From a virus (Duplodnaviria > Caudoviricetes): a stretch of DNA of 64,000 nucleotides. Location of the stretch: the IMG/VR virus record IMGVR_UViG_3300025118_004856, positions 1,163-65,162 of that record. One strand, 5' to 3'. The notes under the pieces are model-generated. The model saw only the letters and a list, made by a program, of their open reading frames with translations, had not been told where the DNA came from and made no database searches. Numbering within the stretch: the stretch's first letter is position 1; the number at the start of each line of letters is the position of its first letter. Positions 110 to 41,384 of the stretch are shown piece after piece. Made by a program: the position numbers and the translations under genes.

Positions 110-182
110 GGCCGATAGTAGGATTCGAACCCACGACTTTCTCATTACAAAAGAGATGCTCTACCAGCTGAGCTATATCGGC
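110..182 (-). tRNA. tRNA-Thr(UGU)
   Basis: Minus strand GCCGATA acceptor, D arm GCTCAGCTGGTAGAGC, anticodon loop TT-TGT-AA, T loop TTCGAAT. Confidence 0.92.
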
Positions 183-189
183 ATTATTT

Positions 190-263
190 TGGTCTAAGTG
201 GAAGGAATCGAACCTCCATCTCACGACCCCAAATCGCGGATAATACCATTATACTACACTTAG
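190..263 (-). tRNA. tRNA-Pro(UGG), encoded CCA
   Basis: CTAAGTG/CACTTAG acceptor, loop TT-TGG-GG, GGAGG-TTCGATT-CCTTC, 3' CCA. Confidence 0.9.
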
Positions 264-273
264 TCTTTTTAAA

Positions 274-346
274 TGGAGACAGTAGGAATCGAACCTACCC
301 CACGGACGTTGCAAACGTCTGTCGCCCCCTTGGTACATGTGTCCTC
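274..346 (-). tRNA. tRNA-Ala(UGC), atypical D arm and acceptor
   Basis: GACG-TTTGCAA-CGTC anticodon arm, GTAGG-TTCGATT-CCTAC T arm; acceptor has a mismatch in either register. Confidence 0.7.
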
Positions 347-353
347 TTTTAGT

Positions 354-426
354 TGCAGTTGTGCCGGAATCGAACCGACGTCTCTGACTCGTAAGCCAGC
401 ATGATTCCAATTATACCAACAGCTAC
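354..426 (-). tRNA. degenerate tRNA (Val-UAC or Arg-ACG-like) with 6-nt anticodon loop
   Basis: T arm GTCGG-TTCGATT-CCGGC intact; anticodon arm CTGGC-TTACGA-GTCAG is one nt short; mismatches in acceptor and D stems. Confidence 0.55.
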
Positions 427-434
427 ACATATTA

Positions 435-506
435 TTGCGGGAGGTGGAATCGAACCACCGATTTCTGGCTTATGAGACCAGCATGTAACCACTACATCAT
501 CCCGCA
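435..506 (-). tRNA. tRNA-Met(CAU) (Met, fMet or Ile2 not resolved)
   Basis: TGCGGGA/TCCCGCA acceptor, loop CT-CAT-AA, GGTGG-TTCGATT-CCACC. Confidence 0.9.
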
Positions 507-1421: not shown

Positions 1422-3299
1422 CTATCCATCCGTCTCTATTGAAATCTTACTTCCATCAATATCCTTCTCTATATTTATTATATTATAGAACCCGCCAAAA
1501 CTATTTAACTTTCTATGGTCAATTAAAAATAATTTCTTCTCTGATGATGAAGCTCTTTCCATCAATAACTCAAGCAAATCGTCAATCCCATTTTCCGATA
1601 ACCATTGTGTAGGTTCATCCCATATCTCTATATTCCAATCTGATCCTGTTCTACTTCTTATTAAATCTATCAGCCCCATTGTACCTGCTATTCTTAGTCG
1701 TTGAGACACACCTCCACCCCAACATTTGAATGGGACTGATCTATCATTATAAGGAGAATTAACTCTTACCTCAAATCCTCTCTTTATTGATTTACCTCCT
1801 CTTGTTTCCTTCTCAATGTCTAATTCTACTTCCCAATCACTTAATCCTAATTTCTGTAGATTGTTATTTATACAAATCTCAAACTCTTGTAAAGCCTGAC
1901 TAACCACAAATAAACGTACATCTTTAAAACCTTTAACCCAATATTCATACAATTTAGATTTCCTTTCTAAATCACTCAATTCCTTTTCCAACTGTTTTAA
2001 ATTATCTTTAACTTTTTTTAGCAATCTATCATTCTCTTCTTTCAGCTTAACAAAAGGGTTATCTTCACTGTTGATTTTGTTTTTACTTCTTAACCGATCA
2101 TCTATTTTATTATTATTATTTTCCATTTTTATACTAGCATCACGCAGCTCATCTTCTACTGATTTAATGTCATCTTCAATATTATTTAATTCTTTATCTA
2201 ACTTACCTAATTTTGAATCTATATCATTCCTTTTTTTAACCATATTAGTTTTATTTATATCATCAGCTTTCATCTCTGTTTCTATTTTATTAGCCTCTTT
2301 ATCTAACTTTCTCAACTCATCTCTAAGATATGTAGCTGATACCTTCTGTAAACAGTAAGGACACTCATCTTTAACCTCTTCAAATTTATCTATACTTTTC
2401 ACAATCAACTCTAGTGCATGATTTTTGACCATGATAATCTTATCCAAATCTAATACACACTCTCTTATCTTATCACGCTCTTTAACCACTTTGCCTATTT
2501 CTCTTGACTCCAGCCTTAACTCTTCCTTCAATTCTTTTTGTTCTATTTTTAATTCAGATATATTTTTTTCAAAAACAGTAATTTCCTTTTTCAATAAAAG
2601 AACATCAGCATCTATATCTTTTATTTTAGTCTTTTGATTTTTATCCCAATATTTAATATCTTCTTCATAATCCTTTTCAGCCAAAACTGATATCTTGCCT
2701 TCCAAAGTGTGCCTATTATTGATGCAAACACCAATATCATTTTTTATTAACTTTACTTCCTCTTTAGCTTTCTCACTTCTATGAATCCAATCATCTAAAT
2801 TTAATATATCACTAAATATCTTTAACTTCTCAGAAGGTTCAAGATCAAAAAACTTAGACGTAAACTGACTTATAAAAACTGAATACAAAAATCCATAGAA
2901 CCCTACCCCAATTAAATCATCTACTTCTTTCTGATTTTTTCCTCTCCATTCTTCAGAATGACCTACAACATAAATAGATAAACCATTAGGGTTCCATGTG
3001 CGCTTTAACCGATAAACAATATTATTTTTTTCAAATTTAATTTCTACATAACACTTCTTATCGCTATCCCAATTAGCAATATCACTTGCCCTTAATTTTG
3101 TAGAAGTGTGTCCATAAAAACCAAAACACAAAGCCTCAAACAAAGAACTTTTACCAACATCATTAGCTTCAAGATTCTCTTCTACTTTATTCTTTCCTGT
3201 TACATAGTTTAATGATTTAGTAATTATATCTTCAAACTTAAATGTTTGTCTTTCTTTAAATGTCCTAAAACCCTGTATTGTTATTGATCTAATATTCAA
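1422..3299 (-). CDS. SbcC/Rad50-like (gp46-like) ATPase
   Basis: Walker A NDVGKSS, coiled coil, zinc hook CPYC, Walker B IWDEP, H-loop. Confidence 0.93.
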   Translation of the reverse strand: MNIRSITIQGFRTFKERQTFKFEDIITKSLNYVTGKNKVEENLEANDVGKSSLFEALCFGFYGHTSTKLRASDIANWDSDKKCYVEIKFEKNNIVYRLKRTWNPNGLSIYVVGHSEEWRGKNQKEVDDLIGVGFYGFLYSVFISQFTSKFFDLEPSEKLKIFSDILNLDDWIHRSEKAKEEVKLIKNDIGVCINNRHTLEGKISVLAEKDYEEDIKYWDKNQKTKIKDIDADVLLLKKEITVFEKNISELKIEQKELKEELRLESREIGKVVKERDKIRECVLDLDKIIMVKNHALELIVKSIDKFEEVKDECPYCLQKVSATYLRDELRKLDKEANKIETEMKADDINKTNMVKKRNDIDSKLGKLDKELNNIEDDIKSVEDELRDASIKMENNNNKIDDRLRSKNKINSEDNPFVKLKEENDRLLKKVKDNLKQLEKELSDLERKSKLYEYWVKGFKDVRLFVVSQALQEFEICINNNLQKLGLSDWEVELDIEKETRGGKSIKRGFEVRVNSPYNDRSVPFKCWGGGVSQRLRIAGTMGLIDLIRSRTGSDWNIEIWDEPTQWLSENGIDDLLELLMERASSSEKKLFLIDHRKLNSFGGFYNIINIEKDIDGSKISIETDG

Positions 3300-6526: not shown

Positions 6527-7185
6527 TTAAAATACTCTTTAGCTTCTTCATAACCCTCCAATGCCCCTATATCTATAAAAACATTTTTTTCATCTGCTAC
6601 TTCAAAATCATAACAATGCGTACCTATAAGTGGTGGGAACACATGGTGTTCTAATGAGCAACACTTAACATCATAATCGTCTAATTCAGAATTCAAAGCT
6701 ATGTTATTTGCAAAATAAATTCCTGAGTTTATAGTGTTTAATCCATTAGACAACACACCCAACCCAACAGCTACCCCACGTTCTAATTTATAAATACTTT
6801 GCATAACAAATGACCTAAAATCTACAGAACAATATGTATCTCCATTCATTATAAAAAAATACTCGCTATTGACTGCTCCTTTATTAAGAGCACTCCTAAC
6901 CGCACCCCCAGTCCCTAATGGCTCATTCTCATGTGAAATAATCTTCTCACACTTTTCAGGCAGCATATTATAAACATATTGAGCTAATTCTACTCCTTTA
7001 TACCCAGTACAAAATATAAATCTTCTAAATCCTTGATCAAGTAGTTTGTCAACCAATATTTTTAAAAAGGGTGTTCCATTTATATCTATCAAGCATTTTG
7101 GTATTTTATCATTTGTAACTTTTCGTATTCGAGTACCTAAACCGCCGCACAGTATCACCACATCTATTTTTGAAAGATCAATCAT
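6523..7185 (-). CDS. hddC: sugar-1-phosphate nucleotidyltransferase, HddC-like
   Basis: LCGGLGTR, PK, EPLGTGG, NGDT, FIDIG motifs; next to HddA-like kinase. Confidence 0.8.
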   Translation of the reverse strand: MIDLSKIDVVILCGGLGTRIRKVTNDKIPKCLIDINGTPFLKILVDKLLDQGFRRFIFCTGYKGVELAQYVYNMLPEKCEKIISHENEPLGTGGAVRSALNKGAVNSEYFFIMNGDTYCSVDFRSFVMQSIYKLERGVAVGLGVLSNGLNTINSGIYFANNIALNSELDDYDVKCCSLEHHVFPPLIGTHCYDFEVADEKNVFIDIGALEGYEEAKEYFK

Positions 7186-8185
7186 AATTATTATCTATAG
7201 TTGAATAATGGATAACTTGACTTCCTAATGCTTCAAATTTAAAAGGGACATGGACTGATCCTTGCTTTGTCAAAGCGTTTTCAATAATTTTGTGTTTATG
7301 TGGTTCAGCAAATATCAATAAAAATCCCCCTCCTCCTGCACCTAACAACTTACCACCAATAGCACCTTTCCTTAATGCTATATTATACATATTGTCAATC
7401 GCATCTGTACTAATTTTATTAGAAATATCCTTTTTCAATTTCCAACTTTCATGCAATAACTTACCAAATTCTTTTATATCACTTGAACTTCTCAAAATAT
7501 TACTAGCTTCATCAACCAAATCAAATAGACTTCGTAATGTAGCATTCTTTATTTTAAAATTATCTATCTGACTTTTAGCTATATCAGAAGCAAACCTTGA
7601 AAAACCTGTAAAAAATAACATAAGGTGATCTTCCAACAATTTCAATCGTTCTGGATCGATAGTAAATGGATTAACATAAAATTCTTGACGCCCCCCAAAC
7701 TCTATTTTATTAAAACCTCCAAATGAACAAGCTACCTGATCTTGAGAGCCTACATTCTCTTCTATTATTTTTTGCTCAACGTGTAATGATGCCTCTGCTA
7801 GTTTTCTTTTTGTCACCATATCCCCTTGCAAACCGTATAAAGCATGAAGCAAACCAACTGTAAAAGCAGAACTTGAACCTACCCCTGACTTTGCTGGTAT
7901 ATCTCCTGTATGCACTACTTCTAAACCTCCTTTGATTTTCATATATATAAAACAAGCTCTAACTGAAGGGTGTTTTATTTCTGAAACCCATTTAACTTCT
8001 TCTTTTTCTGAATACCTAATAATATGATCAAACTTAAAAAATGGAGGAAGATTTCTTAAAAGAATATAGCAATACTTATTGATTGTAGTAGATAATACCT
8101 GCCCACCATGCTGTCTATACCATTGTGGGTAATCAGTTCCTCCCCCAAATAGACTGACACGAAATGGTGTTCTTGTAATAATTAT
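7178..8185 (-). CDS. hddA: GHMP sugar kinase, HddA-like; start extended to ATA at 8185
   Basis: Frame open upstream through IITRTPFRVSLFGGGTDYP; PAKSGVGSS, GSQDQ, GAGGGGF. Confidence 0.88.
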   Translation of the reverse strand: MIITRTPFRVSLFGGGTDYPQWYRQHGGQVLSTTINKYCYILLRNLPPFFKFDHIIRYSEKEEVKWVSEIKHPSVRACFIYMKIKGGLEVVHTGDIPAKSGVGSSSAFTVGLLHALYGLQGDMVTKRKLAEASLHVEQKIIEENVGSQDQVACSFGGFNKIEFGGRQEFYVNPFTIDPERLKLLEDHLMLFFTGFSRFASDIAKSQIDNFKIKNATLRSLFDLVDEASNILRSSSDIKEFGKLLHESWKLKKDISNKISTDAIDNMYNIALRKGAIGGKLLGAGGGGFLLIFAEPHKHKIIENALTKQGSVHVPFKFEALGSQVIHYSTIDNNYD

Positions 8186-8186
8186 G

Positions 8187-8324
8187 TCAATATCCTTTCT
8201 TTAATAATATTCCCAATTGCCATTCTAGTTCATTTCGTAATCTATCGATCTCATGAGCTGCCCCATTTAATTTATCAGCCAAATCCTGAGCAACTGCTTC
8301 ATTAACAGCTAAAAACACAGCTAT
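8187..8324 (-). pseudogene. 3' half of a small phage gene split by the R-M insertion
   Basis: Reads IAVFLAVNEAVAQDLADKLNGAAHEIDRLRNELEWQLGILLKKGY* with no own start; joins in frame to MNTQELRKAA (12232-12261). Confidence 0.7.
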
Positions 8325-11300
8325 TATGATAATGGATTATCTAACCCGTTTGAAACGCACCCGGCCATCCACCATGTTCCTCAATTACCTCGTCGATTTC
8401 TTTCATGATGCGGATAGTTTCGTTTAAGGCAACAACTATTTTCTGGTAGTGATTGAGATCTTCCTCGGTTAAAACACGTCCTGGGTTGCCTTTTTTTGGG
8501 CCACGATCTTTGAGCCATTTGTGACAAACCTGGTATCCTCCTATTTCGAAATCCCATATTTCTTGTTTGACACACTTAAAATGATCCACAGAATTAATTA
8601 AAATTTGTTTTTTTATGGAATCATACTTTGGGTAGCCATTTGCTACCTCGCTGTTAATTGCTCCCACATAAATCGCAATCTTTTGTCTAAAAGGATTAAT
8701 TTTGGTGATACCAGAAGCATTCCAGGGCGCATCTTTATAGTTTTCATCGAGAAGATGAAAAGCAACAAGTTCGGCACCTTTAGCCACAAGAGCCCATTTA
8801 AGATCACTTGAACCTGAAATAGGAATTCCAGGATATGTATCCATCAATGCTTGACCATATTTCTCGCGATAAGTTGGGGAATATAATATAGAGTATATAT
8901 AGTAAAAAGCAGCATACGGTGCTATCCATTGTTTATTACTATTCTTAAAGTGTTTTAGGAACGATGGGTCAATATTTGGCATAGGCTTATCATCTGTAGG
9001 TACATTAATCCAAAGGGGGAACATTTGTGTAGATCGATCATGAGAACAGCATTTTTTTTCCCCAGTCCTTCTTGAAACCAGTGCATGTGTAAATAGTTTT
9101 GTTGTTTTTACATGAGGCGTCATTAATACTAGGTTTTCCACACTAAGAATGCTCTCTGTAATTGGTCTAGCTGGAGCATCAAGTATATGAGGTTCGTAGT
9201 AAATGAGACGATAGTCAAAAGGACGATATAATATCGAATGAATTTTATCATCCGAAGTTCCATCATGGAGTAGTCTTCTTTTCGACTTCTCAACATCCCA
9301 CTTTTTTTTAACAGAATACCCAAGTTCCTCCTCTAAAGAGTTGTCTCCTCTGTCCAGTTTAGAGAATCTACTAATTTTGCTTCGAAGTGTCTGCCTATCA
9401 TGATCAATAACCAAACTGTCTCGCGAAGTGATAATGCAGCAGCTATTAATTCGCATTATGCTTCCCAAACCTTGCCAAACGGAGAATTCTTTTGTTGACT
9501 CTGCATCCTCAGGAATAAACTTATAAAATGGTTCTGAGGGATCCAAACTACTTTCAGGGAAATCCACCATGCTTTTATCTTCAACAGCTTTATATTTCTC
9601 TGCTCGATCTCCAAGTAGTCTGCTGTAGCTGCACCAACTCTTGTTTGAATTCATTGATATGGATAAAAACGAGATAGCAACCCCTTGGGAAATATCAAAA
9701 ATATTCTGATCTGCCTTTGCGGAAAATTCTTTTTCTGCCATATGACCACCAAGGTTTAAGAACTTCAATTTATTGAATAAATTGAGGAACGTCCATCTCA
9801 TCCCACGTAATGAACGTGAGCTAAGAAATCCAAAATTAGAAATATAAGAACCGATACCATGTCCGCTTTCGAATATGAGAGAGCTGAGTAACCCAAAAAA
9901 TTTTATGTAGTCGTCTTGTAAATTGAGTTCATGAGCTAGTGCTCCTTTCTCAATAATTCGTTTACCTGCAACATATCGAAAAGGCTTTATAAGAGAAACA
10001 GCAGCATCAGAAAGGTTAGCTGACATGACTGAATACGGAGGATTTCCTATAACCACTGTAAATCTAAGATTCCGCTTGATAGCATTCACTGCCTTCGCCT
10101 CATGCGCTAACGCAGGAATTTCAAAGACAAAGGTGTCTGAGAAATCCTGTGGTGGCTCAAGTGCGTTGGTCAGGTACACTCTCACTCGCTCTTCGCTGCC
10201 AAAGCAGTAGCCGGTCTCGTAAAGCTTGAGCCCGATCTTAAGATGTGCAATAGCGTAGGGTGCCATTAGCAGCTCGTAGCCGTACAAACGTGGCAGAAGG
10301 TACTTTGGAACGTACTCATTCCAGAGCTTATCGGTCTTCTTCTTGCTGTGGCCTTCGGCCTGCCACTTCTCGGTCATCGTTTTGTGGATGAGGTCGATCA
10401 CTTCTACTAAAAAGGTACCAGTACCAGTTGCGGGATCGAGAATCTGAACGAAGGGCTGATCCTTGGTTGCTCCCTCGGGAATATAGAGGTCGTCGTGGAG
10501 TTTGGTCATTTCGCCCCAGGTGATCGTGTCTGCAAGGCCATCTTCAAGACTGAACTTGGTGCGCAGCAGCTCGTCAACCGAGCGGACGATGAAGGAGACT
10601 ACAGGTCGGGGGGTATAAAACACTCCGCGCTGCATTCGTTTTTTGGCATCGTACTCCTTGAGGAAGAGCTCATAAAAGTGTATGACCGGGTCTTCCTGAG
10701 GGTTTCTGTCCCCAAAGTCCCGGACAATTGCTTCCATGTGAGTATTAGGGTTATTCAACAACTCCACTACCTCATTTACCCCGAGTTCGTCAAAGTCGAC
10801 GTCAGCACTAAGCTTGGTCCTATCGCTTTTTTCACCGACAGAAAGGAAAGTTTCCATCAGGTCTTTGAGGAAGGGATTTGTGATAGGAATCTGATCTAAG
10901 AAGTCATCTGCTGTGCTAGGTTTCGGGTTTGTAATTCGTGAAGAAAGCAGACCATAAGCAATAGTCTGTGCATACATATCAGCGAAACTGTCCTCATCTA
11001 AATCGTGAATAAGGGCTTTCTTAACTGCCTTCATTAGCATTCGGCGAGGACCGTTCTCTGTTTCAATGGATAGTACATCGTTGATACATGCTCGAATACT
11101 CTGTGCAAGTTTAGCAAGCCTTATGAACAAGGACTTAGACGTATTGATTACCTCTAAATGCTGCAATGTAAAAGCCGATGTCCATGTTTTTCGCCAAGTG
11201 TCTATATCATTTTCATCCTCTGGCCAAGTAAGTTTTGAGTGAAGTTCATCTGAAACATTATCAAGATGTAGAGGAGTATCTAAGTTATCCCATCCCAAAA

Positions 11301-12231
11301 CTTTTAGAGTAGGAAGAGATTTCTTGTTTACGTTTTGCGAAAAGTGCGCAAGGCTTATTCTTCGTTCTTCGCTTTCTCCATAGTTAGAGATGAAGAGTAA
11401 ATCGTTCATACTCCAAGCGGGTCTTTCTGAGACATTAGCAGAAGCACGCTTCCTAAATACAACTCGGCTAAGAATCCTCCGTAGGGCTACGACTGGGAGT
11501 CTTTTAGGCTCAAACTTGACAAAAAAGATAGCCCAAGGTGGTTGGTTAGGCACTAATGGTCTTAGACGTCTAATCTCCTTAATCTTAGCAGCATTTTTTC
11601 TATCGATTCCCAGTTCTTCAGGAGTATAGTCAAAGGTTAAGTCCTCAAAATTATCAGAACTGATAGGCCAATCGAGTTCGTCGTGGAGATACTTAATAAG
11701 TTGTGGGAACGCTCTAACATCTTTTAGCAAATCACGATGGTTTGGAGCCATTTATTACTCCTCGTTGAGTTCCATCCAGGCTTTAAGAATAGGTTTCACA
11801 TCTATAGGAGCATCAACACGTTTAAGATACGTATTTTTGATATGCTTTAGAACCTTTATCCGAATCTCTATTAGAGTTTTCTGGTCAGCAACGCACTTAC
11901 GTGGCGTGTTAGGTTTAGATCGAATACTCTGGATGATTTCGCCGGGTTCTTCGAGAATTACCCCTTTGTCAATGTCATAAAGATACCATCGGGTTGTTCC
12001 TGCCTCCTCGGTGAACTGTTCTTTTTCCTTATCCAGGGCAGGTAGGACGTAACAAAAAAAGACTCCATAAGTACCCTTAGCTGGGCGTTTCCGCCCACTG
12101 AATATGGAACCAGGAAGACCGCCAAGATACTTATCAAGATCAGGATTTTCCTTGAGCAACTTTTGATATTCAAGATGCATTCCCTCTACTGCTGTCTTCT
12201 TTCCTTCATAGGCATGGTTAAATTCTTTTTT
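8325..12231 (-). other. 3.9 kb foreign insertion of R-M DNA
   Basis: Visibly higher GC than flanks; starts mid-gene; flanks rejoin into one ORF; no transposase or inverted repeats. Confidence 0.75.
8341..11751 (-). CDS. N6-adenine DNA methyltransferase with C-terminal specificity domain (type IIG / type ISP-like)
   Basis: GVFYTP, LDPATGTGTF (motif I), IGNPPY (motif IV), C-terminal WDFEIGGYQVCHKWLKDR. Confidence 0.9.
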   Translation of the reverse strand: MAPNHRDLLKDVRAFPQLIKYLHDELDWPISSDNFEDLTFDYTPEELGIDRKNAAKIKEIRRLRPLVPNQPPWAIFFVKFEPKRLPVVALRRILSRVVFRKRASANVSERPAWSMNDLLFISNYGESEERRISLAHFSQNVNKKSLPTLKVLGWDNLDTPLHLDNVSDELHSKLTWPEDENDIDTWRKTWTSAFTLQHLEVINTSKSLFIRLAKLAQSIRACINDVLSIETENGPRRMLMKAVKKALIHDLDEDSFADMYAQTIAYGLLSSRITNPKPSTADDFLDQIPITNPFLKDLMETFLSVGEKSDRTKLSADVDFDELGVNEVVELLNNPNTHMEAIVRDFGDRNPQEDPVIHFYELFLKEYDAKKRMQRGVFYTPRPVVSFIVRSVDELLRTKFSLEDGLADTITWGEMTKLHDDLYIPEGATKDQPFVQILDPATGTGTFLVEVIDLIHKTMTEKWQAEGHSKKKTDKLWNEYVPKYLLPRLYGYELLMAPYAIAHLKIGLKLYETGYCFGSEERVRVYLTNALEPPQDFSDTFVFEIPALAHEAKAVNAIKRNLRFTVVIGNPPYSVMSANLSDAAVSLIKPFRYVAGKRIIEKGALAHELNLQDDYIKFFGLLSSLIFESGHGIGSYISNFGFLSSRSLRGMRWTFLNLFNKLKFLNLGGHMAEKEFSAKADQNIFDISQGVAISFLSISMNSNKSWCSYSRLLGDRAEKYKAVEDKSMVDFPESSLDPSEPFYKFIPEDAESTKEFSVWQGLGSIMRINSCCIITSRDSLVIDHDRQTLRSKISRFSKLDRGDNSLEEELGYSVKKKWDVEKSKRRLLHDGTSDDKIHSILYRPFDYRLIYYEPHILDAPARPITESILSVENLVLMTPHVKTTKLFTHALVSRRTGEKKCCSHDRSTQMFPLWINVPTDDKPMPNIDPSFLKHFKNSNKQWIAPYAAFYYIYSILYSPTYREKYGQALMDTYPGIPISGSSDLKWALVAKGAELVAFHLLDENYKDAPWNASGITKINPFRQKIAIYVGAINSEVANGYPKYDSIKKQILINSVDHFKCVKQEIWDFEIGGYQVCHKWLKDRGPKKGNPGRVLTEEDLNHYQKIVVALNETIRIMKEIDEVIEEHGGWPGAFQTG

Positions 12232-12261
12232 TGCTGCCTTTCTTAATTCTTGTGTATTCAT
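11755..12261 (-). pseudogene. chimeric ORF: 10 phage codons fused to C-terminal fragment of an R-M-associated (probably helicase) gene
   Basis: Composition changes after codon 10; remainder resembles, from memory, the tail of helicases that precede such MTases; stop 3 nt before MTase start. Confidence 0.55.
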
Positions 12262-12281
12262 AATTTCTCATAAATAAAAAA

Positions 12282-12550
12282 AGTAGTGGGTGCAAAAAAC
12301 AAAAAGTTCTACGCTATCAGAAAAGAACTCTCAACTGCCTTCTTCAACATATCCGACAGACACCCACTACTCAATAATGTGAGCTTACCACCTAAATTCT
12401 ATTAAAAGAATTTATGACTGCCTTATTCAATATATTCGGCAGACTCCCATTATTAAAATTGCAAGTAATGGGTGCATTAACCGTGTAAATCTTCGCTCAA
12501 AAAGACTTAACATTCCCGCTATTTCAATATATTTCACGGACACCCACTAC
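12282..12550 (-). ncRNA. three tandem ~85 nt three-way-junction RNA units (12282-12371, 12373-12454, 12465-12550)
   Basis: Each has an 11-12 bp closing stem, a short stem with conserved loop RAUAURUUGAA and a variable third hairpin; G-U pairs and compensatory changes on the minus strand. Confidence 0.7.
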
Positions 12551-12613
12551 CTGTTATTTCCTTTAAGAGAAGGCAACGCTTTTTCACATTGTTGTTTGAT
12601 TTTTCCGATTAAG

Positions 12614-12904
12614 CTAATTACTTCTACCGTAGAATACATACCATCCTTTGTTATCTTTTTCTTCTTCTACATGGCAGTTTTCCTTTAGTGCTTGTGGAGT
12701 AGATATTTCACTAAATGCTTGTACTGCGGCCACATACGCTTTATAAAAATCATCATTCAATTTCTCACTTTGAACACCATCAATCTTTAACATGAAAGCG
12801 TAACCTCCAAGACACCTATAAATTTTACAAAAACCCAAATCTATGCTTACACTACCATGTGTGCTAATCGTAATAAGGCATGGACTATTTTCTAAAATTA
12901 ACAT
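12614..12904 (-). CDS. hypothetical protein
   Basis: 96 aa ORF, co-oriented. Confidence 0.6.
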   Translation of the reverse strand: MLILENSPCLITISTHGSVSIDLGFCKIYRCLGGYAFMLKIDGVQSEKLNDDFYKAYVAAVQAFSEISTPQALKENCHVEEEKDNKGWYVFYGRSN

Positions 12905-12951
12905 TGTTTTCTCTTAATCCTTATACATATCTTTCTTTTCATTCTTATTCT

Positions 12952-13326
12952 TTATTCTTCAGTCTCTTCAGTGAATTTTCTCAAATCATTCTTAGATGGA
13001 TTAGCAAATCTTTCTCTTGCCATATCATGATACTCATTAGATAAATCAAATCCAATATAATCATGACCCAATAACTGTGCTGCTAGTCCAGTCGTACCTG
13101 AACCACTGTAGGGGTCAAGCACTAGACCAGATTCATCCAATACGCCTTGAATACATCTAGAAGGAAGTTGAATTGGGAAAGGTGCAGGATGAGGATTCTT
13201 CATCTCAGGTCCAAACTTCCATACACTTGTATAATTAACTGACCTTCTAGTATGATCATACTTTTTTAAATAGGTTCTTAGCCTGTTATCTAAGGCTAAA
13301 TTTCTTGATGTTAATAAACTTTGCAT
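12952..13326 (-). pseudogene. C-terminal fragment of a beta-class N4/N6 DNA methyltransferase fused to unrelated sequence
   Basis: SVW...HPAPFP, VLDPYSGSGTT (motif I), YIGFD; catalytic (S/D)PPY half absent. Confidence 0.8.
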
Positions 13327-13502
13327 ACGGCTAATATTGTCCTTTGAATACCTATCTTGATTCTCATAAAAAGTTCTCCGTTAACCTTACCAAAAGCAAA
13401 CTGACTACCATCTATCTTTTCCGTAATTTCTACTTCATCATCAAAAATGTTAGAAATGTAGTCTGTACCAATTGCAAATATTTTTGGAAATGCATTAATC
13501 AT
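13311..13502 (-). pseudogene. truncated RNA ligase (Rnl2-like nucleotidyltransferase), N-terminus only
   Basis: FPKI...ITEKIDGSQF (KxDG motif I); similarity lost after ELFMR (~13362). Confidence 0.75.
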
Positions 13503-14466
13503 TTTTATTCTCCTTATACCAATCTATAGTTTTCCTCATACCATCATAAATATTATTCCAAGAACGATATCCTAAAAGTTTATAAATTTTATCCATATTT
13601 AACAATCTCTTTTTAACTGTTGATGGTTTACCTTTTGAGTGTTTAATGTTTTTCTTTTTCACACCCATCATATCTAATATCTTATTAACACTGAAACCCT
13701 CTCCATAACCTACATTAAAAATATCAAACTTGTCTACCTTTTCCGTTAATGCTAAAACATCTCTTACAAAATCATCTACATAAATAAAATCCCTTACATC
13801 CTCACCATCTCCCCACACTTCAAACGGATTCTGACCATCGCAATATTTTTTAATCAATGCAGCCATTACATGGGAAGTATCAGGATTGAAGTCATCATAA
13901 GGACCATATACATTACTCGGTCTAACAATTAAACACTGCATAGGATTTTTTACTTTTGTGGAATAAAACTCACACAGCTTTTCTACATACCGTTTCATGT
14001 GAGCCACTCCAAAATAACAATCTGGAGGATCAGACAAATAACCTTCTGCTTCTAAAAAGCTTCTATCATTATTAATTACCAACTCTGGATAAACAGCACC
14101 ACTACTTATAAATACAAACTTTTTTACCCCAGCTTTATGAGCTGCATCCAGAAGATAAGTATTCATAACTGTATTATCAGTTACCAAAGCTGCAGGATTC
14201 TCATTCATAAACTTTGCACCATGCGTCACAGCTGCACAATGTATAATTATATCCATTTCTTCGACTACATCTTCACAATCTCTTTTTTTAGTTAAATCTC
14301 TATACATAAGAAATGCTTTGATAGTTGGATCTTGTAAAACATTGTTGTTAATAACACAATATAAATCACAACCCATTAACTGTTCCAATTTTAAAAGCAC
14401 ATTAGTTCCGATAAAGCCACTTGCTCCTGTTACCAATACTTTTTTACCTTTAAAATAATCACTCAT
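13495..14466 (-). CDS. NAD-dependent epimerase/reductase, GDP-fucose synthase-like
   Basis: GASGFIG, YxxxxK region, RPSNVYGPYDDF, SHVMAALI, VWGDGEDVRDFIYVDD. Confidence 0.88.
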   Translation of the reverse strand: MSDYFKGKKVLVTGASGFIGTNVLLKLEQLMGCDLYCVINNNVLQDPTIKAFLMYRDLTKKRDCEDVVEEMDIIIHCAAVTHGAKFMNENPAALVTDNTVMNTYLLDAAHKAGVKKFVFISSGAVYPELVINNDRSFLEAEGYLSDPPDCYFGVAHMKRYVEKLCEFYSTKVKNPMQCLIVRPSNVYGPYDDFNPDTSHVMAALIKKYCDGQNPFEVWGDGEDVRDFIYVDDFVRDVLALTEKVDKFDIFNVGYGEGFSVNKILDMMGVKKKNIKHSKGKPSTVKKRLLNMDKIYKLLGYRSWNNIYDGMRKTIDWYKENKND

Positions 14467-19486: not shown

Positions 19487-19701
19487 ACTTTCTCCTTTCT
19501 AATTAATAGATTTATCATTCTATATTCATTAATAACTTTTTCTAAAACATTAGCCATCAACCTCTTTAGTATCTCTTCTCCATTTTTATAAATTTGAGGT
19601 TTAACAAAATCAAATGTTTCATTCAATTTAGATATCGGGACTCTCCAAGCAAAATATATTTTTGTACTCATATCAAAATGGTCCTTTAAATTTATTTTCA
19701 T
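19483..19701 (-). CDS. hypothetical protein, possibly truncated
   Basis: Short co-oriented ORF. Confidence 0.45.
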   Translation of the reverse strand: MKINLKDHFDMSTKIYFAWRVPISKLNETFDFVKPQIYKNGEEILKRLMANVLEKVINEYRMINLLIRKEKV

Positions 19702-20740
19702 GCGAATAGCAATCTACATCACGTAGATCAGGTACACGTAATCCTAACCTATTTGTAACTTTTAAAACTATATCTTTTACATCATAATAAAAATCATTCT
19801 CAAGATGTCTTGCAGTAGGACAAGGAGTATTCTTCCAACCTATTCTTGAAAAATTAATAGGATTATGTGTAAGATTAAATTTACCATCGAGATACTTTGC
19901 TAAGAACCCAGCCCCAACACTATTGCTCAACCAATCATCCTCAACAATAATACATTCATCTGTGTTAATACAACTGACTATTAAATCTATATCAAGATTA
20001 GATAACCTTTTTAAATCTATTATATTAGTCTTCACAGAACACTTACTCCATAAAACATCTGCAGCTTTTTTACACTCAACTACCCCCCACGAATAACTTA
20101 ATAAAGTTATATCTGCTTCACCATCAGACCTATAAGGATGTACTACAGTTTGAAAAGGCTGTTCAAAATCAGATTCCAAAACACAAGGATGAACTTCTTG
20201 CTCTTGCCAATACAACCATCTATGTTCAAAACAAATAACAGGACTATTACTTCTAATTGCCTTAGTCAACATCCCTTTCATATCTATTGGATTTGAAGGG
20301 GCTATAACTATCAATCCGGGTACATGAGTAAATAAAGAAAATAAACTTTTACTATGCTGAAAACCTTGCCCCCATCCTCTTCCAATTATTATCCTTATAA
20401 CTATTGGGCATAATAGTTGATTATTGCTCATATACTGAATACCAGACATCATATTAATTATCTGATTCATAGCAAGCAAAGCAAAATCTGCTCTAATATG
20501 TATTTGTACAGGTCTCATGCCATTCATTGCTGCCCCTATCCCAAACCCAGTAAGCGAATCTTCACTAAGCGGAGTATCGAACACTCTATTTTTACCGAAC
20601 TTTTCTTGTAATCCTATAGTTGTACCAAATATTCCCTTAAAATCATCACAACCTATTCCATAACAGAAAACATTTTTATCTCGTTCCATTTCCTGTATTA
20701 AAGTTGTTCTTATTGCTTCTGCATAAGTCAATTTCTGCAT
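19673..20740 (-). CDS. TPP-dependent enzyme, E1 beta / transketolase C-like subunit
   Basis: RVFDTPLSE, GWGQGFQHS, PVICFEHR. Confidence 0.9.
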   Translation of the reverse strand: MQKLTYAEAIRTTLIQEMERDKNVFCYGIGCDDFKGIFGTTIGLQEKFGKNRVFDTPLSEDSLTGFGIGAAMNGMRPVQIHIRADFALLAMNQIINMMSGIQYMSNNQLLCPIVIRIIIGRGWGQGFQHSKSLFSLFTHVPGLIVIAPSNPIDMKGMLTKAIRSNSPVICFEHRWLYWQEQEVHPCVLESDFEQPFQTVVHPYRSDGEADITLLSYSWGVVECKKAADVLWSKCSVKTNIIDLKRLSNLDIDLIVSCINTDECIIVEDDWLSNSVGAGFLAKYLDGKFNLTHNPINFSRIGWKNTPCPTARHLENDFYYDVKDIVLKVTNRLGLRVPDLRDVDCYSHENKFKGPF

Positions 20741-21405
20741 AATCTTTTAACCCAAAAAGCCCTATTGTAATTAGTTTTCATATGACATTTCTTACATAAG
20801 GAAATTAGATTTTCTGACACACTATTCTTTTTATTATAATCAATATGATGTACTCCTAACTTATAATCTAATTCTTCCTGTTTAATTCCGCATTCTTGGC
20901 AAGTATAATTATCTCTTTTTCTAATTTCCTCTTTTAACTTTTCATTAAATTCTATCCCATATGGCTCAAAAGAAACACCGCCTACCCAGTTAGGATGGTC
21001 TTTCCCTAAAGAATATATACGATTCAGACTTATCTTTTCTCTGGTTTCTTTACTATGATTCTTTCCGTACATACCATTATTTTTACCAACAGTAGCATTT
21101 CTAATTTTTTCTATAGTTGCTTTAGAATGTTTTCTACCAATATGAGCTTTTCTATTGAGCTCCTTCGTTTCTTTCGTATGATTCCTTCCATAAAAAGGAT
21201 TATTTTTACCTAAATAATCTGGACTATTTAAACTCATTTTAATAAGTGATTCTTTAGAATGTTTTTTACCAAGAAAAGGATTATTACTACCTCTATTCTG
21301 ATGCCCATTAATAAAGGTATTAAACCTCTGATTATACTTATTCCAAATAGGAAATTCACTACAACCACATTCACAAAACTTTTTTAGTAGATTTATTGTT
21401 CTCAT
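20728..21405 (-). CDS. NUMOD3-HNH homing endonuclease
   Basis: GKKHSKES repeats, RDNYTCQECG, VHHIDYNK, NLISLCKKCH. Confidence 0.88.
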   Translation of the reverse strand: MRTINLLKKFCECGCSEFPIWNKYNQRFNTFINGHQNRGSNNPFLGKKHSKESLIKMSLNSPDYLGKNNPFYGRNHTKETKELNRKAHIGRKHSKATIEKIRNATVGKNNGMYGKNHSKETREKISLNRIYSLGKDHPNWVGGVSFEPYGIEFNEKLKEEIRKRDNYTCQECGIKQEELDYKLGVHHIDYNKKNSVSENLISLCKKCHMKTNYNRAFWVKRLCRN

Positions 21406-22271
21406 ACTGTACTTTTCACTTTTTCTAAACTCTTATTAACTTTCTTATTTATATTATACTCAATTCCACTTACAACACCTGCATCAACTATATCTTTTAT
21501 TAACTGTTTTTCTAACATCAACACAGGATCAACAGTTGTTATATCTGGTTTTACTCTATATCCTTCATCATAATCTTCATTGATACCAACATGCTCAAGC
21601 ATACGATGATAACTACAATGAAGAAACAACGGGGTTGTTTTATTCTTACAAACTTTATAATAAATACTACTATAGTCACAAACACCGAACCAACCATAAT
21701 TACTACGATGTAAATCCATATAGCACAATACAGTATTCAATTTTGAATGTACTGCCAAGCCATTATCTTCACAAACAAAAATAATAGGTAAATCATAAAG
21801 AAACGCAATATTAACACTTTCCCAAAATGCACCTTCCTGAACTGCACCATCACCAAAAAATACCACTACAATCTTATCATTCTTTTTTTGTTTATTTGCC
21901 CAAGCATAGCCACAAGCAACCGATATCTGACTTGCCACTATCGCCGACGACATTATGAATCCTTTTTCAGGATAACATAAATGCATTGAACCGCCTCTTC
22001 CTCCAAGAACAGACTCTTTTCTGCCGTACATCTCTAAAAAGAATTGGTCAGTATCCTCTGTCCTTGCAAGAAAAGGAGCATGTGAACGGTACGAAGAGGA
22101 AACTTGTGCTCTATCGCCAAGCGATAAACATACAGCAGATGATATATGCTCAGAACCCATGCTCATGTGCATGGGAGTCTTCATACCGTCATTATTATAT
22201 TCTCTTATTATTGCATTCTCACATGCTCTGATGAGATACATTTTTTTGTAAAGCTCTAACTCAATATTCAT
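21402..22271 (-). CDS. TPP-dependent enzyme, E1 alpha subunit
   Basis: HMSMGSE, YRSH, GRGGSMH, GDGA...EDN TPP motif. Confidence 0.9.
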   Translation of the reverse strand: MNIELELYKKMYLIRACENAIIREYNNDGMKTPMHMSMGSEHISSAVCLSLGDRAQVSSSYRSHAPFLARTEDTDQFFLEMYGRKESVLGGRGGSMHLCYPEKGFIMSSAIVASQISVACGYAWANKQKKNDKIVVVFFGDGAVQEGAFWESVNIAFLYDLPIIFVCEDNGLAVHSKLNTVLCYMDLHRSNYGWFGVCDYSSIYYKVCKNKTTPLFLHCSYHRMLEHVGINEDYDEGYRVKPDITTVDPVLMLEKQLIKDIVDAGVVSGIEYNINKKVNKSLEKVKSTV

Positions 22272-40214: not shown

Positions 40215-41384
40215 TTAAAATTTATTTTTAATAGATACTACATCACCAAAAGGAACTTTGTTTGCGTACTTAGAACCTGTACTAATCCAAAGAACTGGGT
40301 AATCAGGTGTATCACCGAAATCACTACATTCCAGATCAGTAAGATACACTAAGCACTTTGGTGTTAAACCAAGCTCATCTACTTTTTTAAACACAGGTGA
40401 AAATCTTGTACCGCCACCTCTTTCAATCTTCACATCCAATTCATCATACTCATTAAATGTTTCTACAGATTGAACTGAAGTGTTACAGCTTATAGCTGTG
40501 ATGTTGGCTTTGAATTCTCTCCCGATAACTTTTATTTCAGTCAGGAATTGATTCAGCTCCTCTTGAGTTACCGAAGTCGAAATGTCAATCCCAATTACCA
40601 AGTCTAACATATCAGACTTTAAAGATGGGAGATAAATTCCGTGCGCAACGTATCTTCTGTTAGGAGCTGTCCAAGAATAATCTGACTTTGCAGACTGTTC
40701 AACAAATCTTCTTAGCAACTGCTTCCAGTCAACTTTAGGATTCAATAATTCATGAACGAGTTTTTCAAGTTCACCTGAAAGGTTGCCTTGATTTTTTGCC
40801 GTGTTAGCCGCCTGCTGTGTAGCAGTTTTCCAATCATCTGCAGTTGCTGTAGAGTCTTCAGAATCTCTAACTTCACCGCACTCACCAGGATCATTACCTT
40901 CACCATTTACATCTCCAGGTTGACCCGCAGGTCCTTTTCCGTTTCCACCTTCATCTTCTTCTTTAGGCAACATAGTATAAATTATATCTGAAGAAAGGTC
41001 TGCATACTGATCGTCAACCAATCCACCTTTAGGAAGATAAAATACCTGACGATTTTCTTTATCTTTGATACTAAGGAGAACTAAATTGATTTGATAATCA
41101 CAAGCTTTATTCCATTGCCTTGCGTTTCTACCATTACGTCTTCCGATGTGATCGTACACGCAGTGTAAAACTTCATGTGCAGTGACCCCAGTTGTTTCAT
41201 CCAATGTTAAACTATCAATCCATTTAGGATTATAGCCCATTGACTTACCATCTGTCCAAGCAGTAGGACAAGAAGAATCTTCAATTATATTTAACTTCAT
41301 AATTAAAGAACCAAAAAATGGTTGCGTCAAAATCAAATTGATTCTGGCTTTCATAATTTTATCTTTCGCAGTCATGTTTACCAC
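40215..41384 (-). CDS. HExxH metallopeptidase-like plus vWA protein (DUF2201-like)
   Basis: TAWTDG, HEVLH, WNKACD, DISTS, GGGT, YLTD. Confidence 0.88.
   Translation of the reverse strand: MVNMTAKDKIMKARINLILTQPFFGSLIMKLNIIEDSSCPTAWTDGKSMGYNPKWIDSLTLDETTGVTAHEVLHCVYDHIGRRNGRNARQWNKACDYQINLVLLSIKDKENRQVFYLPKGGLVDDQYADLSSDIIYTMLPKEEDEGGNGKGPAGQPGDVNGEGNDPGECGEVRDSEDSTATADDWKTATQQAANTAKNQGNLSGELEKLVHELLNPKVDWKQLLRRFVEQSAKSDYSWTAPNRRYVAHGIYLPSLKSDMLDLVIGIDISTSVTQEELNQFLTEIKVIGREFKANITAISCNTSVQSVETFNEYDELDVKIERGGGTRFSPVFKKVDELGLTPKCLVYLTDLECSDFGDTPDYPVLWISTGSKYANKVPFGDVVSIKNKF

What the first reader, a model, noticed from the sequence alone, without database searches (positions are those of the whole stretch)
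12282..12550. Tandem triplet of an unrecognised three-way-junction RNA with a conserved 15-16 nt loop
Seen (minus strand): P1 AGUAGUGGGUGU/GCACCCACUACU, AAUAAUGGGAGU/GCUCACAUUAUU, GUAGUGGGUGU/GCACCCAUUAC. P2 CUGUC/GGCAG, CUGCC/GGCAG, CCGU/GCGG, closing loops GGAUAUGUUGAAGAA, GAAUAUAUUGAAUAA, GAAAUAUAUUGAAAUA. P3 varies and has U-rich loops. Stems covary between copies and most imperfect pairs are G-U only on this strand, which points to RNA-level selection. The P3 loop of unit 2 (UUUAAU) could pair with AUUGAA. I do not recognise the family. Hypotheses: protein-sequestering decoy RNAs (RUUGAA resembles type I-B/III crRNA 5' handles, so possibly an RNA anti-CRISPR or antitoxin mimic), a tandem riboswitch, or substrates of the nearby, now broken, RNA ligase.
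Basis: partly seen in the sequence, partly recalled or inferred. Interest (0 to 1): 0.8.

Follow-up and report, generated by a model that had tools for sequence, protein, structure and literature searches.

The report
Conserved structured RNA module in marine phage
Three tandem copies of a small, previously undescribed folded RNA element sit next to a broken RNA ligase gene at a recombination-prone junction of an uncultured marine phage; the element is real and conserved, but rare, and its function is still inferred.

Summary
Window 12282-12550 (minus strand) carries three units of 86, 82 and 90 nt. Each has an 11-12 bp closing helix P1, a 4-5 bp P2 capped by a conserved 15-16 nt A/U-rich loop, and a variable hairpin P3. 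They fold far better than shuffles and better on the minus strand. They show compensatory changes and match no Rfam family.

Only two other distinct units were found, one each in two syntenic marine contigs. The module is better conserved (36-37 of 38 nt) than the flanking genes (66-79% nt).

It begins at the stop codon of a ~300-aa RNA ligase gene that is broken here. It lies inside a long nucleotide-sugar operon. Metagenome contigs show different neighbours on both sides and arrays of one to three units.

The 168-aa ORF downstream is no toxin. It is a helicase C-terminal fragment brought in with a type IIG methylase cassette.

Best reading (0.45): an intercistronic RNA cassette that acts as terminator/attenuator and carries a factor-binding loop, and that also serves as a homology patch for gene shuffling. 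Riboswitch, ribozyme, antitoxin and anti-CRISPR readings are poorly supported. A functional link to the ligase stays open.

The parts
12465..12550 (-). Unit A (86 nt). P1 12550-12540 with 12475-12465; P2 12539-12536 with 12519-12516; 16-nt loop 12535-12520; P3 about 12511-12485.
   Evidence: Covariance model R1 scores it 79.1 bits. Its 5' module is 36 of 38 identical to the L025 unit.
12373..12454 (-). Unit B (82 nt). P1 12454-12443 with 12384-12373 (one G.A mismatch); P2 12442-12438 with 12422-12418; 15-nt loop 12437-12423; P3 12414-12393.
   Evidence: R1 scores it 82.7 bits. It carries the three compensatory P1 changes.
12282..12371 (-). Unit C (90 nt), the last of the array. P1 12371-12360 with 12293-12282; P2 12359-12355 with 12339-12335; 15-nt loop 12354-12340; P3 about 12332-12302; U-rich J3/1.
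   Evidence: R1 scores it 101.8 bits. Its 5' module is 37 of 38 identical to the L001 unit.
12269..12281 (-). U-rich tail (U7 AUUUAU) directly after P1 of unit C. It is shared with L001.
   Evidence: In one contig of run X6 the sequence diverges after 12272 (table 7).
13311..13502 (-). Remnant of an RNA ligase gene. Codons 1-49 (13502-13356) match ~300-aa PF09414 ligases; the rest is unrelated.
   Evidence: 271 longer proteins at E<=0.001; all 120 listed carry PF09414, most about 300 aa; 45 of 49 identical to P0003; 13.7 bits, below the family cut-off.
12952..13326 (-). Fragment (C-terminal part) of an N6/N4 DNA methylase.
   Evidence: PF01555, profile positions 133-220 of 221; 82% nt identity to a Prochlorococcus phage P-TIM68 methylase. 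Contigs in three runs diverge at 12957.
12614..12904 (-). 96-aa ORF with no family, directly upstream of the array.
12229..12261 (-). First 11 codons of a small ORF that originally followed the array. Here they are fused to the inserted cassette.
   Evidence: table 7: loose ends at 12229 in runs X6 and X10..
8322..12228 (-). Inserted foreign cassette. It holds the C-terminal ~157 aa of a PLD/SNF2 helicase (11755-12228) and a complete type IIG-like methylase (8341-11751).
   Evidence: 99% identity to the end of a 1049-aa helicase. Type_ISP_C, N6_Mtase, REase_MTase_IIG at E 4e-159. GC 0.37-0.50 and flat GC skew, against 0.29-0.35 and strongly negative skew beside it; contigs without the cassette join 12229 to 8321.
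8187..8321 (-). 3' part of the small ORF split by the cassette.
7178..8185 (-). GHMP-type heptose-phosphate kinase gene. It directly follows the unit in L001 and L025. Here the frame is open but ATA stands where the relatives have ATG.
13495..14466 (-). NAD-dependent epimerase, the conserved upstream neighbour of the variable junction.

Best explanation
The three units are copies of one small, undescribed structured RNA module, transcribed with the minus-strand operon.

Each unit has four parts:
- a closing helix P1 of nearly fixed sequence;
- a short helix P2 stacked on P1;
- a conserved 15-16 nt A/U-rich loop on P2, whose 8-nt core is self-complementary (G-U tolerated);
- a hairpin P3 that keeps its shape but not its sequence.

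The module is the 3'-flanking, intercistronic cassette of a phage RNA ligase gene lodged in the middle of a long nucleotide-sugar operon.

Inferred mechanism: the last unit of an array ends in U-tracts and acts as a terminator/attenuator and as a protective 3' structure. This sets the ratio of upstream to downstream expression. The fixed P1 and P2 loop are the binding site of a trans factor, either a protein or a loop-loop contact between units.

Shown: the module is far better conserved than its neighbours. It sits exactly where neighbouring genes are swapped, and its copy number varies from 1 to 3. So it also works as the homology patch for recombination. Unit A resembles the L025 unit and unit C the L001 unit more than either resembles the other.
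For: Structure and strand:.

Sequence constraint: the 5' module (P1 5' arm, P2 and loop) is 37 of 38 identical between C and L001, and 36 of 38 between A and L025. The flanking epimerase and kinase genes are 76-79% and 66-68% identical in nucleotides. Eleven loop positions are invariant in all 5 units.

Position:
- The window is syntenic with L001 and L025, running epimerase ... unit ... kinase.
- In L001 the ligase remnant (residues 1-11 and 282-300 of P0003) ends with its stop codon inside the P1 5' arm.
- In one contig of run X6 a two-unit array follows codons that I read by eye as the ligase C-terminus (tables 5, 7 and 8; compare the P0003 end).

Terminal against internal units: C and L001 have U7 right after P1 and a U5GU6 J3/1 after P3. 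L025 has U5 in J3/1 and a U-rich tail. Internal units A and B have neither.

Junction role:
- Contigs in runs X6 and X10 lack the 3.9-kb cassette.
- One X6 contig diverges after 12272 into another gene, and one diverges upstream of 12550.
- A 34-nt contig over the P1 3' arm and tail has a word depth of 49, against 17-27 for the longer contigs around it.

Arrays of 1 (L001, L025), 2 (X6 contig) and 3 (window) units occur.
Against: - No transcript evidence of any kind.
- The simple terminator scan flags nothing on the minus strand here. P1 encloses a 60-nt branched insert, and by eye the short stems of unit C's P3 hold too few G-C pairs for the scan's rule.
- L025 has no uninterrupted U-tract right after P1.
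- A plain terminator would not need a fixed P1 sequence or a conserved loop, so the 'factor' is pure inference.
- Only 5 distinct units from 3 assembled lineages are known, and all three compensatory P1 changes come from unit B alone.
- High identity between lineages could reflect recent lateral exchange rather than purifying selection.
- The module occurs at one locus only in the 65-kb and 38.7-kb records, unlike dispersed regulatory cassettes.
Confidence: 0.45

Rival explanations
1. The units are genes for stand-alone small RNAs (about 85-90 nt each, cut from the array or ended at the U-tract) that act in trans. They could be a decoy or sponge for an RNA-binding protein or nuclease, or a dedicated partner (substrate, decoy or regulator) of the adjacent RNA ligase.
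For: - The closed, end-paired architecture, the fixed P1 and loop sequence, and the variable spacer hairpin fit a protein-recognised RNA.
- The arrays end with a helix and U7, as many small RNAs do.
- The unit starts at the ligase stop codon in L001 and apparently in an X6 contig.
- A ligase remnant lies 750 nt upstream in the window.
Against: - The units are conserved where the ligase is destroyed (window, L001), and L025 shows no ligase remnant by eye.
- 0 of 80 other loci of this ligase family carry a significant match to the unit. None of 17 ligase 3' flanks inspected looks like it.
- No Ro60/TROVE gene is present in the two partial records.
- No promoter is evident upstream of unit A, and no processing sites are known.
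Confidence: 0.22
2. The conservation is at the DNA level. The module is a recombination or mobile-element sequence (like a PeSL or a MITE, with P1 arms as terminal inverted repeats), and the RNA folds are a by-product.
For: - It marks the exact borders of gene replacements and of copy-number change.
- Units are closer between phages than within the array.
- L025 looks like a chimera of an A-type 5' half and a C-type 3' half.
- The region is a graveyard of gene fragments.
Against: - It always sits at the same syntenic site, with no second locus in either record, so it is not dispersed like a MITE or a PeSL.
- About 10 G-U against 0 A-C pairs in P1/P2, and much weaker plus-strand folds, point to selection on one transcribed strand.
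- P3 keeps a hairpin through complete sequence turnover.
- No target-site duplication was seen.
Confidence: 0.18
3. It is a tandem riboswitch or a self-cleaving ribozyme array that controls the downstream sugar genes.
For: - A three-way junction in tandem copies lies just upstream of the heptose kinase gene in 2 of 3 assembled loci.
- A U-tract follows P1.
Against: - The junction strands are not conserved in length or sequence (J2/3 of 3-7 nt and J3/1 of 8-12 nt, all different). Known ligand pockets and ribozyme cores lie there.
- The downstream gene differs among variants: kinase, a small ORF, or another gene.
- There is no Rfam match even at E up to 10.
- 0 of 17 more distant kinase loci have it.
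Confidence: 0.06
4. It is an RNA anti-CRISPR (repeat mimic) or a type III antitoxin-like RNA array.
For: - Tandem repeats of structured RNA in a phage.
That likeness was not measured here.
Against: - The downstream ORF is a helicase fragment brought by an insertion, not a toxin.
- PADLOC gives only a weak hit (E 6e-4) to that ORF.
- The units are 60-69% identical to one another and 82-90 nt long, unlike the short near-identical repeats that I recall for type III antitoxins.
- The host and its CRISPR repeats are unknown.
Confidence: 0.04

Closest known systems
PeSL cassettes (promoter-early stem-loop) of T4-type phages (PMC2839356, passages read; PMC4122927, abstract read)
   Same: [quoted passage not shown] Both contain a stem-loop thought to attenuate transcription. 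Both lie at the borders of insertions, deletions and replacements, and both offer homology for recombination between otherwise unrelated neighbours.
   Different: PeSLs are defined by a strong sigma-70 consensus promoter and occur many times per genome in hyperplastic regions. Here the promoter-like hexamers are at chance level and only one locus per record carries the module. This phage is not T4-like. The fold is a three-helix junction with a conserved large loop, not a simple G/C-rich hairpin.
Intrinsic (factor-independent) terminators and attenuators
   Same: A stable helix is followed at once by a U-tract in units C and L001 (P1 then U7), and P3 is followed by a U-rich J3/1 in all three terminal units.
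   Different: The closing helix encloses about 60 nt with two further hairpins. Its sequence and a 15-16 nt loop are conserved across lineages, which terminators do not need. Internal units A and B have no U-tract, and the consensus scan does not flag the site.
Bacterial Y RNAs beside RNA repair genes (rsr-yrlBA-rtcBA; PMC4201824, search listing and start of abstract only)
   Same: Both are small RNAs closed by pairing of their 5' and 3' ends. Both can stand in tandem next to an RNA ligase gene, and I recall Y RNAs also being found in some phages.
   Different: There is no match to any Rfam family, Y RNA models included. No TROVE/Ro60 gene is present in the two partial records. The ligase here is an ATP-type PF09414 enzyme, not RtcB. 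No tRNA-like domain is present.
EAR and put-type antitermination RNAs inside long operons (HK022 put: PMC9378689, search listing only; EAR: recalled)
   Same: Both are a cis-encoded folded RNA placed between genes of a long operon. EAR lies in polysaccharide operons, and this module lies in a phage nucleotide-sugar operon of about 20 kb.
   Different: There is no sequence or model similarity. No terminators to be bypassed have been mapped. The likeness is one of position only.

Membership tests
Any Rfam 15 family | Score at or above the family's gathering threshold | tested here: not met
   The whole window gives only 4 tRNA matches. Region 11800-13000 at E up to 10 gives two unrelated weak hits at E 2.5 and 3.9. 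L001 and L025 at E up to 1 give 0 matches.
tRNA / tmRNA | Cloverleaf recognised by ARAGORN | tested here: not met
   There are 5 tRNA genes at 110-506 only, and none in 12282-12550.
PeSL cassette | Strong sigma-70 consensus promoter within the module | tested here: inconclusive
   One 9-of-12 site (TTAATA-16-TATATT) spans the A-B spacer and the unit B loop. But 3 sites were found against 4.8 expected in the region. Read by eye, units C and L001 have TTGAGT-17-TATRTT. The host polymerase is unknown.
PeSL cassette | Many copies per genome, flanking orphan genes in variable regions | tested here: not met
   Model R1 finds only the one locus in the 65-kb record and one in the 38.7-kb record. Both records are partial (46% and 24% complete).
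PeSL cassette | Lies at the borders of indels and replacements between related phages | tested here: met
Intrinsic terminator | Stable G+C-containing helix followed at once by a U-tract | tested here: inconclusive
   This is met by eye for P1 + U7 in C and L001. It is not met in L025 or in units A and B. The consensus scan finds none on the minus strand.
Type III toxin-antitoxin RNA (ToxI-like) | Repeat array directly upstream of an endoribonuclease toxin gene | tested here: not met
   The downstream ORF is a helicase C-terminal fragment inside an inserted cassette. In L001 and L025 the downstream gene is a sugar kinase.
Riboswitch | Conserved nucleotides in the junction or core, and a consistent class of regulated genes | tested here: not met
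   The junction strands vary in length and sequence. The downstream genes differ among variants.
Y RNA | Ro60 (TROVE) gene nearby and a Ro-binding helix | tested here: not met
   PF05731 is absent from both records, though both are partial. There is no Rfam Y RNA match.
RNA anti-CRISPR (repeat mimic) | Sequence and fold like the host's CRISPR repeat | not testable with these tools
   The host is unknown.

The most novel reading that the evidence does not exclude
The module is the dedicated RNA partner of the phage's ~300-aa ATP-dependent RNA ligase. It would be a ligase-linked structured RNA, for example a cleavable decoy for a host ribonuclease that the ligase reseals, or an RNA whose paired ends the ligase joins. 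It is encoded from the ligase stop codon onward in arrays of 1-3. That would be a new two-part phage RNA-repair or counter-defence system.
Probability: 0.1. Interest if true: 0.8.

Novelty: new variant of a known kind. Interest (0 to 1): 0.42.

Why it matters
If it is real at the RNA level, this adds a new, compact, sequence-constrained RNA fold from uncultured marine phages. It also gives a concrete case in which a regulatory RNA cassette doubles as the crossover point for gene shuffling, outside the T4-like phages where PeSLs were described. The start at the stop codon of an RNA ligase gene gives a direct, cheap biochemical test of a possible ligase-RNA partnership. If the module is only a terminator-like spacer, the finding is ordinary. 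It still documents how a bacterial methylase cassette was captured next to it.

Tried and rejected
Searches for more copies
- Four degenerate or gapped patterns were scanned over IMG/VR. They returned 1, 20, 3 and 1 loci. By inspection only L001 is a true unit.
- One pattern was scanned over metagenome contigs. It returned 4 loci, of which 2 are true: L024, identical to L001, and L025.
- Model R1 was run over 80 ligase loci. There was no significant match; the best hits had E 2 and 5.5.
- R1 was run with filters off over 17 kinase loci. The best hit was 20 bits, at E 0.023, 39 nt long and lying on the opposite strand within the kinase match; nothing lies upstream of the kinase.
- The R1 hit at window 3102-3183 (19.3 bits) has broken pairs and no loop, so I count it as chance.

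Searches that could not be done
- Bacterial genomes were never searched. Genome contigs gave no answer three times and was then capped.

Expression
- No RNA holder was listed. 24 runs from 19 studies hold the DNA, all marine or seawater metagenomes.
- The one run guessed to be RNA (X24) covered only 12957-13000. This says nothing on expression.

Protein searches
- P0001 gave no match in the phages collection or in IMG/VR.
- The ligase fragment gave no match in the phages collection.

Literature
- Six full-text searches (and the PeSL reading) gave no description of this motif. The papers' supplements were not seen and may list unnamed motifs.

Ideas considered and dropped
- A conserved pseudoknot between the P2 loop and the P3 loop: present in unit B only.
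- A peptide encoded in the unit C loop: the AUG is not conserved in L001.
- An alternative pairing of the P2 5' strand with J3/1: possible in A and B only.

Full report
**1. The observation**

Read on the minus strand, window 12550-12282 holds three head-to-tail units: A 12550-12465, B 12454-12373 and C 12371-12282.

- The 291-nt stretch folds at -86.6 kcal/mol, against -62.5 +/- 4.9 for 200 dinucleotide shuffles (z -4.9).
- Each unit folds more stably on the minus strand (-26.3, -19.4, -31.0) than on the plus strand (-13.5, -17.1, -20.4).
- A 24-nt degenerate pattern over P1, P2 and the loop occurs 3 times in the window, against 0.01 expected.
- No ORF of 40 aa or more overlaps 12262-12613 on either strand.
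- All larger genes of the window lie on the minus strand, so the units would be transcribed in the sense orientation.

**2. Anatomy**

With P1 and P2 enforced, every unit adopts the same three-helix fold within 0-2 kcal/mol of its unconstrained optimum.

| Element | Form |
|---|---|
| P1 | 11-14 bp |
| P2 | 4-5 bp, directly stacked on P1 |
| Loop on P2 | 15-16 nt |
| J2/3 | short, variable |
| P3 | 8-15 bp hairpin, U-rich 5' strand and purine-rich 3' strand |
| J3/1 | variable |

Eleven loop positions are invariant in all five known units. The loop core (AAUAUAUU, GAUAUAUU or GAUAUGUU) is self-complementary in 5 of 5 units if G-U is allowed; I read this from the sequences. The junction strands are not conserved.

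**3. Not a known family**

- Rfam at gathering thresholds finds only tRNAs at 110-506.
- At E up to 10 the region gives two irrelevant hits.
- The two homologous loci give nothing at E up to 1.
- ARAGORN finds no tRNA-like gene here.

**4. Homologs**

The window is a 65-kb fragment of an uncultured virus record.

- Four pattern scans of IMG/VR and one of metagenome contigs gave only two further distinct units: L001:8379-8471 (L024 is identical) and L025:7530-7437.
- A covariance model built from the five units finds nothing else in the window, in L001's whole record or in L025.

On the model-fitted alignment:
- P1 is 98% paired, with 3 of 12 pairs changed on both sides, all in unit B.
- Over P1 and P2 together the covariation score is 0.259, against 0.136 +/- 0.034 in shuffles (0 of 500). 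Slid registers pair only 31-56%.
- P2 of the A-type units is mis-registered in that alignment. Read from the P1 side it keeps 4 pairs, one of them U-A changed to C-G.

The three-helix model holds 25 G-U, 0 A-C and 1 G.A among 139 pairs. The P3 part of that count is biased by the folding program. The roughly 10 G-U against 0 A-C in P1/P2 is not.

**5. Constraint**

- The 38-nt 5' module is 37 of 38 identical between unit C and L001, and 36 of 38 between unit A and L025.
- The flanking epimerase and kinase genes are only 76-79% (L001) and 66-68% (L025) identical in nucleotides.
- A against C is 26 of 38.

So the units of the array are closer to units in other phages than to each other. The array is not a recent local duplication.

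**6. Context**

The phage is not T4-like. It has a family-A polymerase, a DnaB-like helicase, a UvsX-like recombinase and SbcC. Its helicase is at most about 34% identical to anything in the phages collection.

The units lie inside a run of about 20 kb of nucleotide-sugar genes, all on the minus strand. The window is syntenic with L001 and L025 on both sides.

| Locus | Order of genes (in the direction of transcription) |
|---|---|
| L001 | epimerase, 80-aa ORF, 28-codon ligase remnant, one unit, heptose-phosphate kinase |
| Window | epimerase, ligase N-terminal remnant, methylase fragment, 96-aa ORF, units A-B-C, then the rest below |

**7. The ligase**

- Window 13502-13356 matches residues 1-49 of ~300-aa PF09414 ligases (45 of 49 to P0003).
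- L001:8297-8380 matches residues 1-11 and 282-300 of P0003. This is an internal deletion. Its stop codon TAG lies inside the P1 5' arm.
- In run X6 one 1726-nt contig aligns to 12550-12519 and to 12370-12276, with 67 other letters between. That is a two-unit array. The letters just upstream read, by eye, as the last codons of a P0003-like ligase followed by a stop (tables 5, 7 and 8). This is one contig, laid at 80% likeness.
- The link is not general. 0 of 80 IMG/VR loci of this ligase family (42-66% identical) have a significant match. None of 17 ligase 3' flanks inspected shows a similar element.

**8. What lies downstream**

The 168-aa ORF has no Pfam, PHROG or NCBIfam family. It is 99% identical to the C-terminal end of a 1049-aa PLD/SNF2 helicase. 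It is followed by a complete type IIG-like methylase.

Contigs in runs X6 and X10 run from 12229 straight into letters identical to window 8321-8292. So 8322-12228 is a cassette inserted into a small ORF. Its composition is foreign. The units therefore do not belong to that cassette, and the ORF is not a toxin.

Another X6 contig leaves the window sequence after 12272, inside the U-rich tail, and continues, by eye, with a ribosome-binding site and a different gene. A 34-nt contig over the P1 3' arm and tail has the highest word depth, 49 against 17-27. This fits a node shared by several arrangements.

**9. Terminal against internal units**

- C and L001: U7 directly after P1, and U5GU6 after P3.
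- L025: U5 in J3/1 and a U-rich but interrupted tail.
- A and B: neither feature.

The consensus terminator scan flags nothing here on the minus strand.

**10. Interpretation**

Shown:
- a conserved, strand-specific, three-helix element that is absent from Rfam;
- its place from the ligase stop codon to the next gene;
- variable neighbours and copy number.

Inferred:
- it acts as a terminator/attenuator and a protective structure;
- P1 and the loop bind a factor;
- recombination between units changes copy number, with L025 looking like an A-type 5' half joined to a C-type 3' half.

The closest concept is the PeSL cassette of T4-type phages (PMC2839356 passages; PMC4122927 abstract). But two of the PeSL features tested fail or are unclear (see the membership test).

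Riboswitch and ribozyme readings are weak because the junction is not conserved. The antitoxin reading fails on the downstream gene. The anti-CRISPR reading could not be tested. A true functional link to the ligase remains the boldest reading that the data allow.

**11. Limits**

- Only five distinct units are known.
- There is no RNA evidence.
- Bacterial genomes were not searched.
- Supplements of papers were not seen.

Noticed in passing
window 8322-12228: A bacterial-type module was captured by the phage. It holds the last ~157 aa of a PLD/SNF2 helicase-nuclease (99% identical to a 1049-aa marine protein) and an intact 1136-aa type IIG-like methylase. Its GC content and skew are foreign, and contigs of two other runs lack it. 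The phage kept the methylase and lost the nuclease/helicase, which may serve as self-protection.
   Followed up: partly
window 8183-8185: The heptose-phosphate kinase frame is open from here to 7178, but ATA stands where L001 and L025 have ATG. The first canonical start is 81 codons in, at 7942. This may be a non-canonical start or a dying gene.
   Followed up: partly
window 12952-13326: A fragment of an N6/N4 DNA methylase (only the last ~88 profile positions). It is 82% identical in DNA to a Prochlorococcus phage P-TIM68 methylase. Contigs of three runs share it and diverge at 12957.
   Followed up: partly
window 20728-21405: A NUMOD3 + HNH homing-endonuclease ORF sits between the two halves of a split transketolase-like pair (21402-22271 and 19673-20740). 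L025 has the two halves without this ORF between them (coordinates).
   Followed up: no
window 110-506: A cluster of five tRNA genes lies on the minus strand. One (354-426) is reported with an undetermined anticodon by ARAGORN and is missed by Rfam's tRNA model at the gathering score.
   Followed up: no
L001:8297-8383: The RNA ligase is reduced to 28 codons by an in-frame internal deletion (residues 1-11 joined to 282-300), and its stop codon lies inside the RNA unit.
   Followed up: yes
window 40215-41384: A 389-aa ORF matches a PHROG family annotated as HNH endonuclease (E 3e-104). It is a second possible homing element in the replication module.
   Followed up: no
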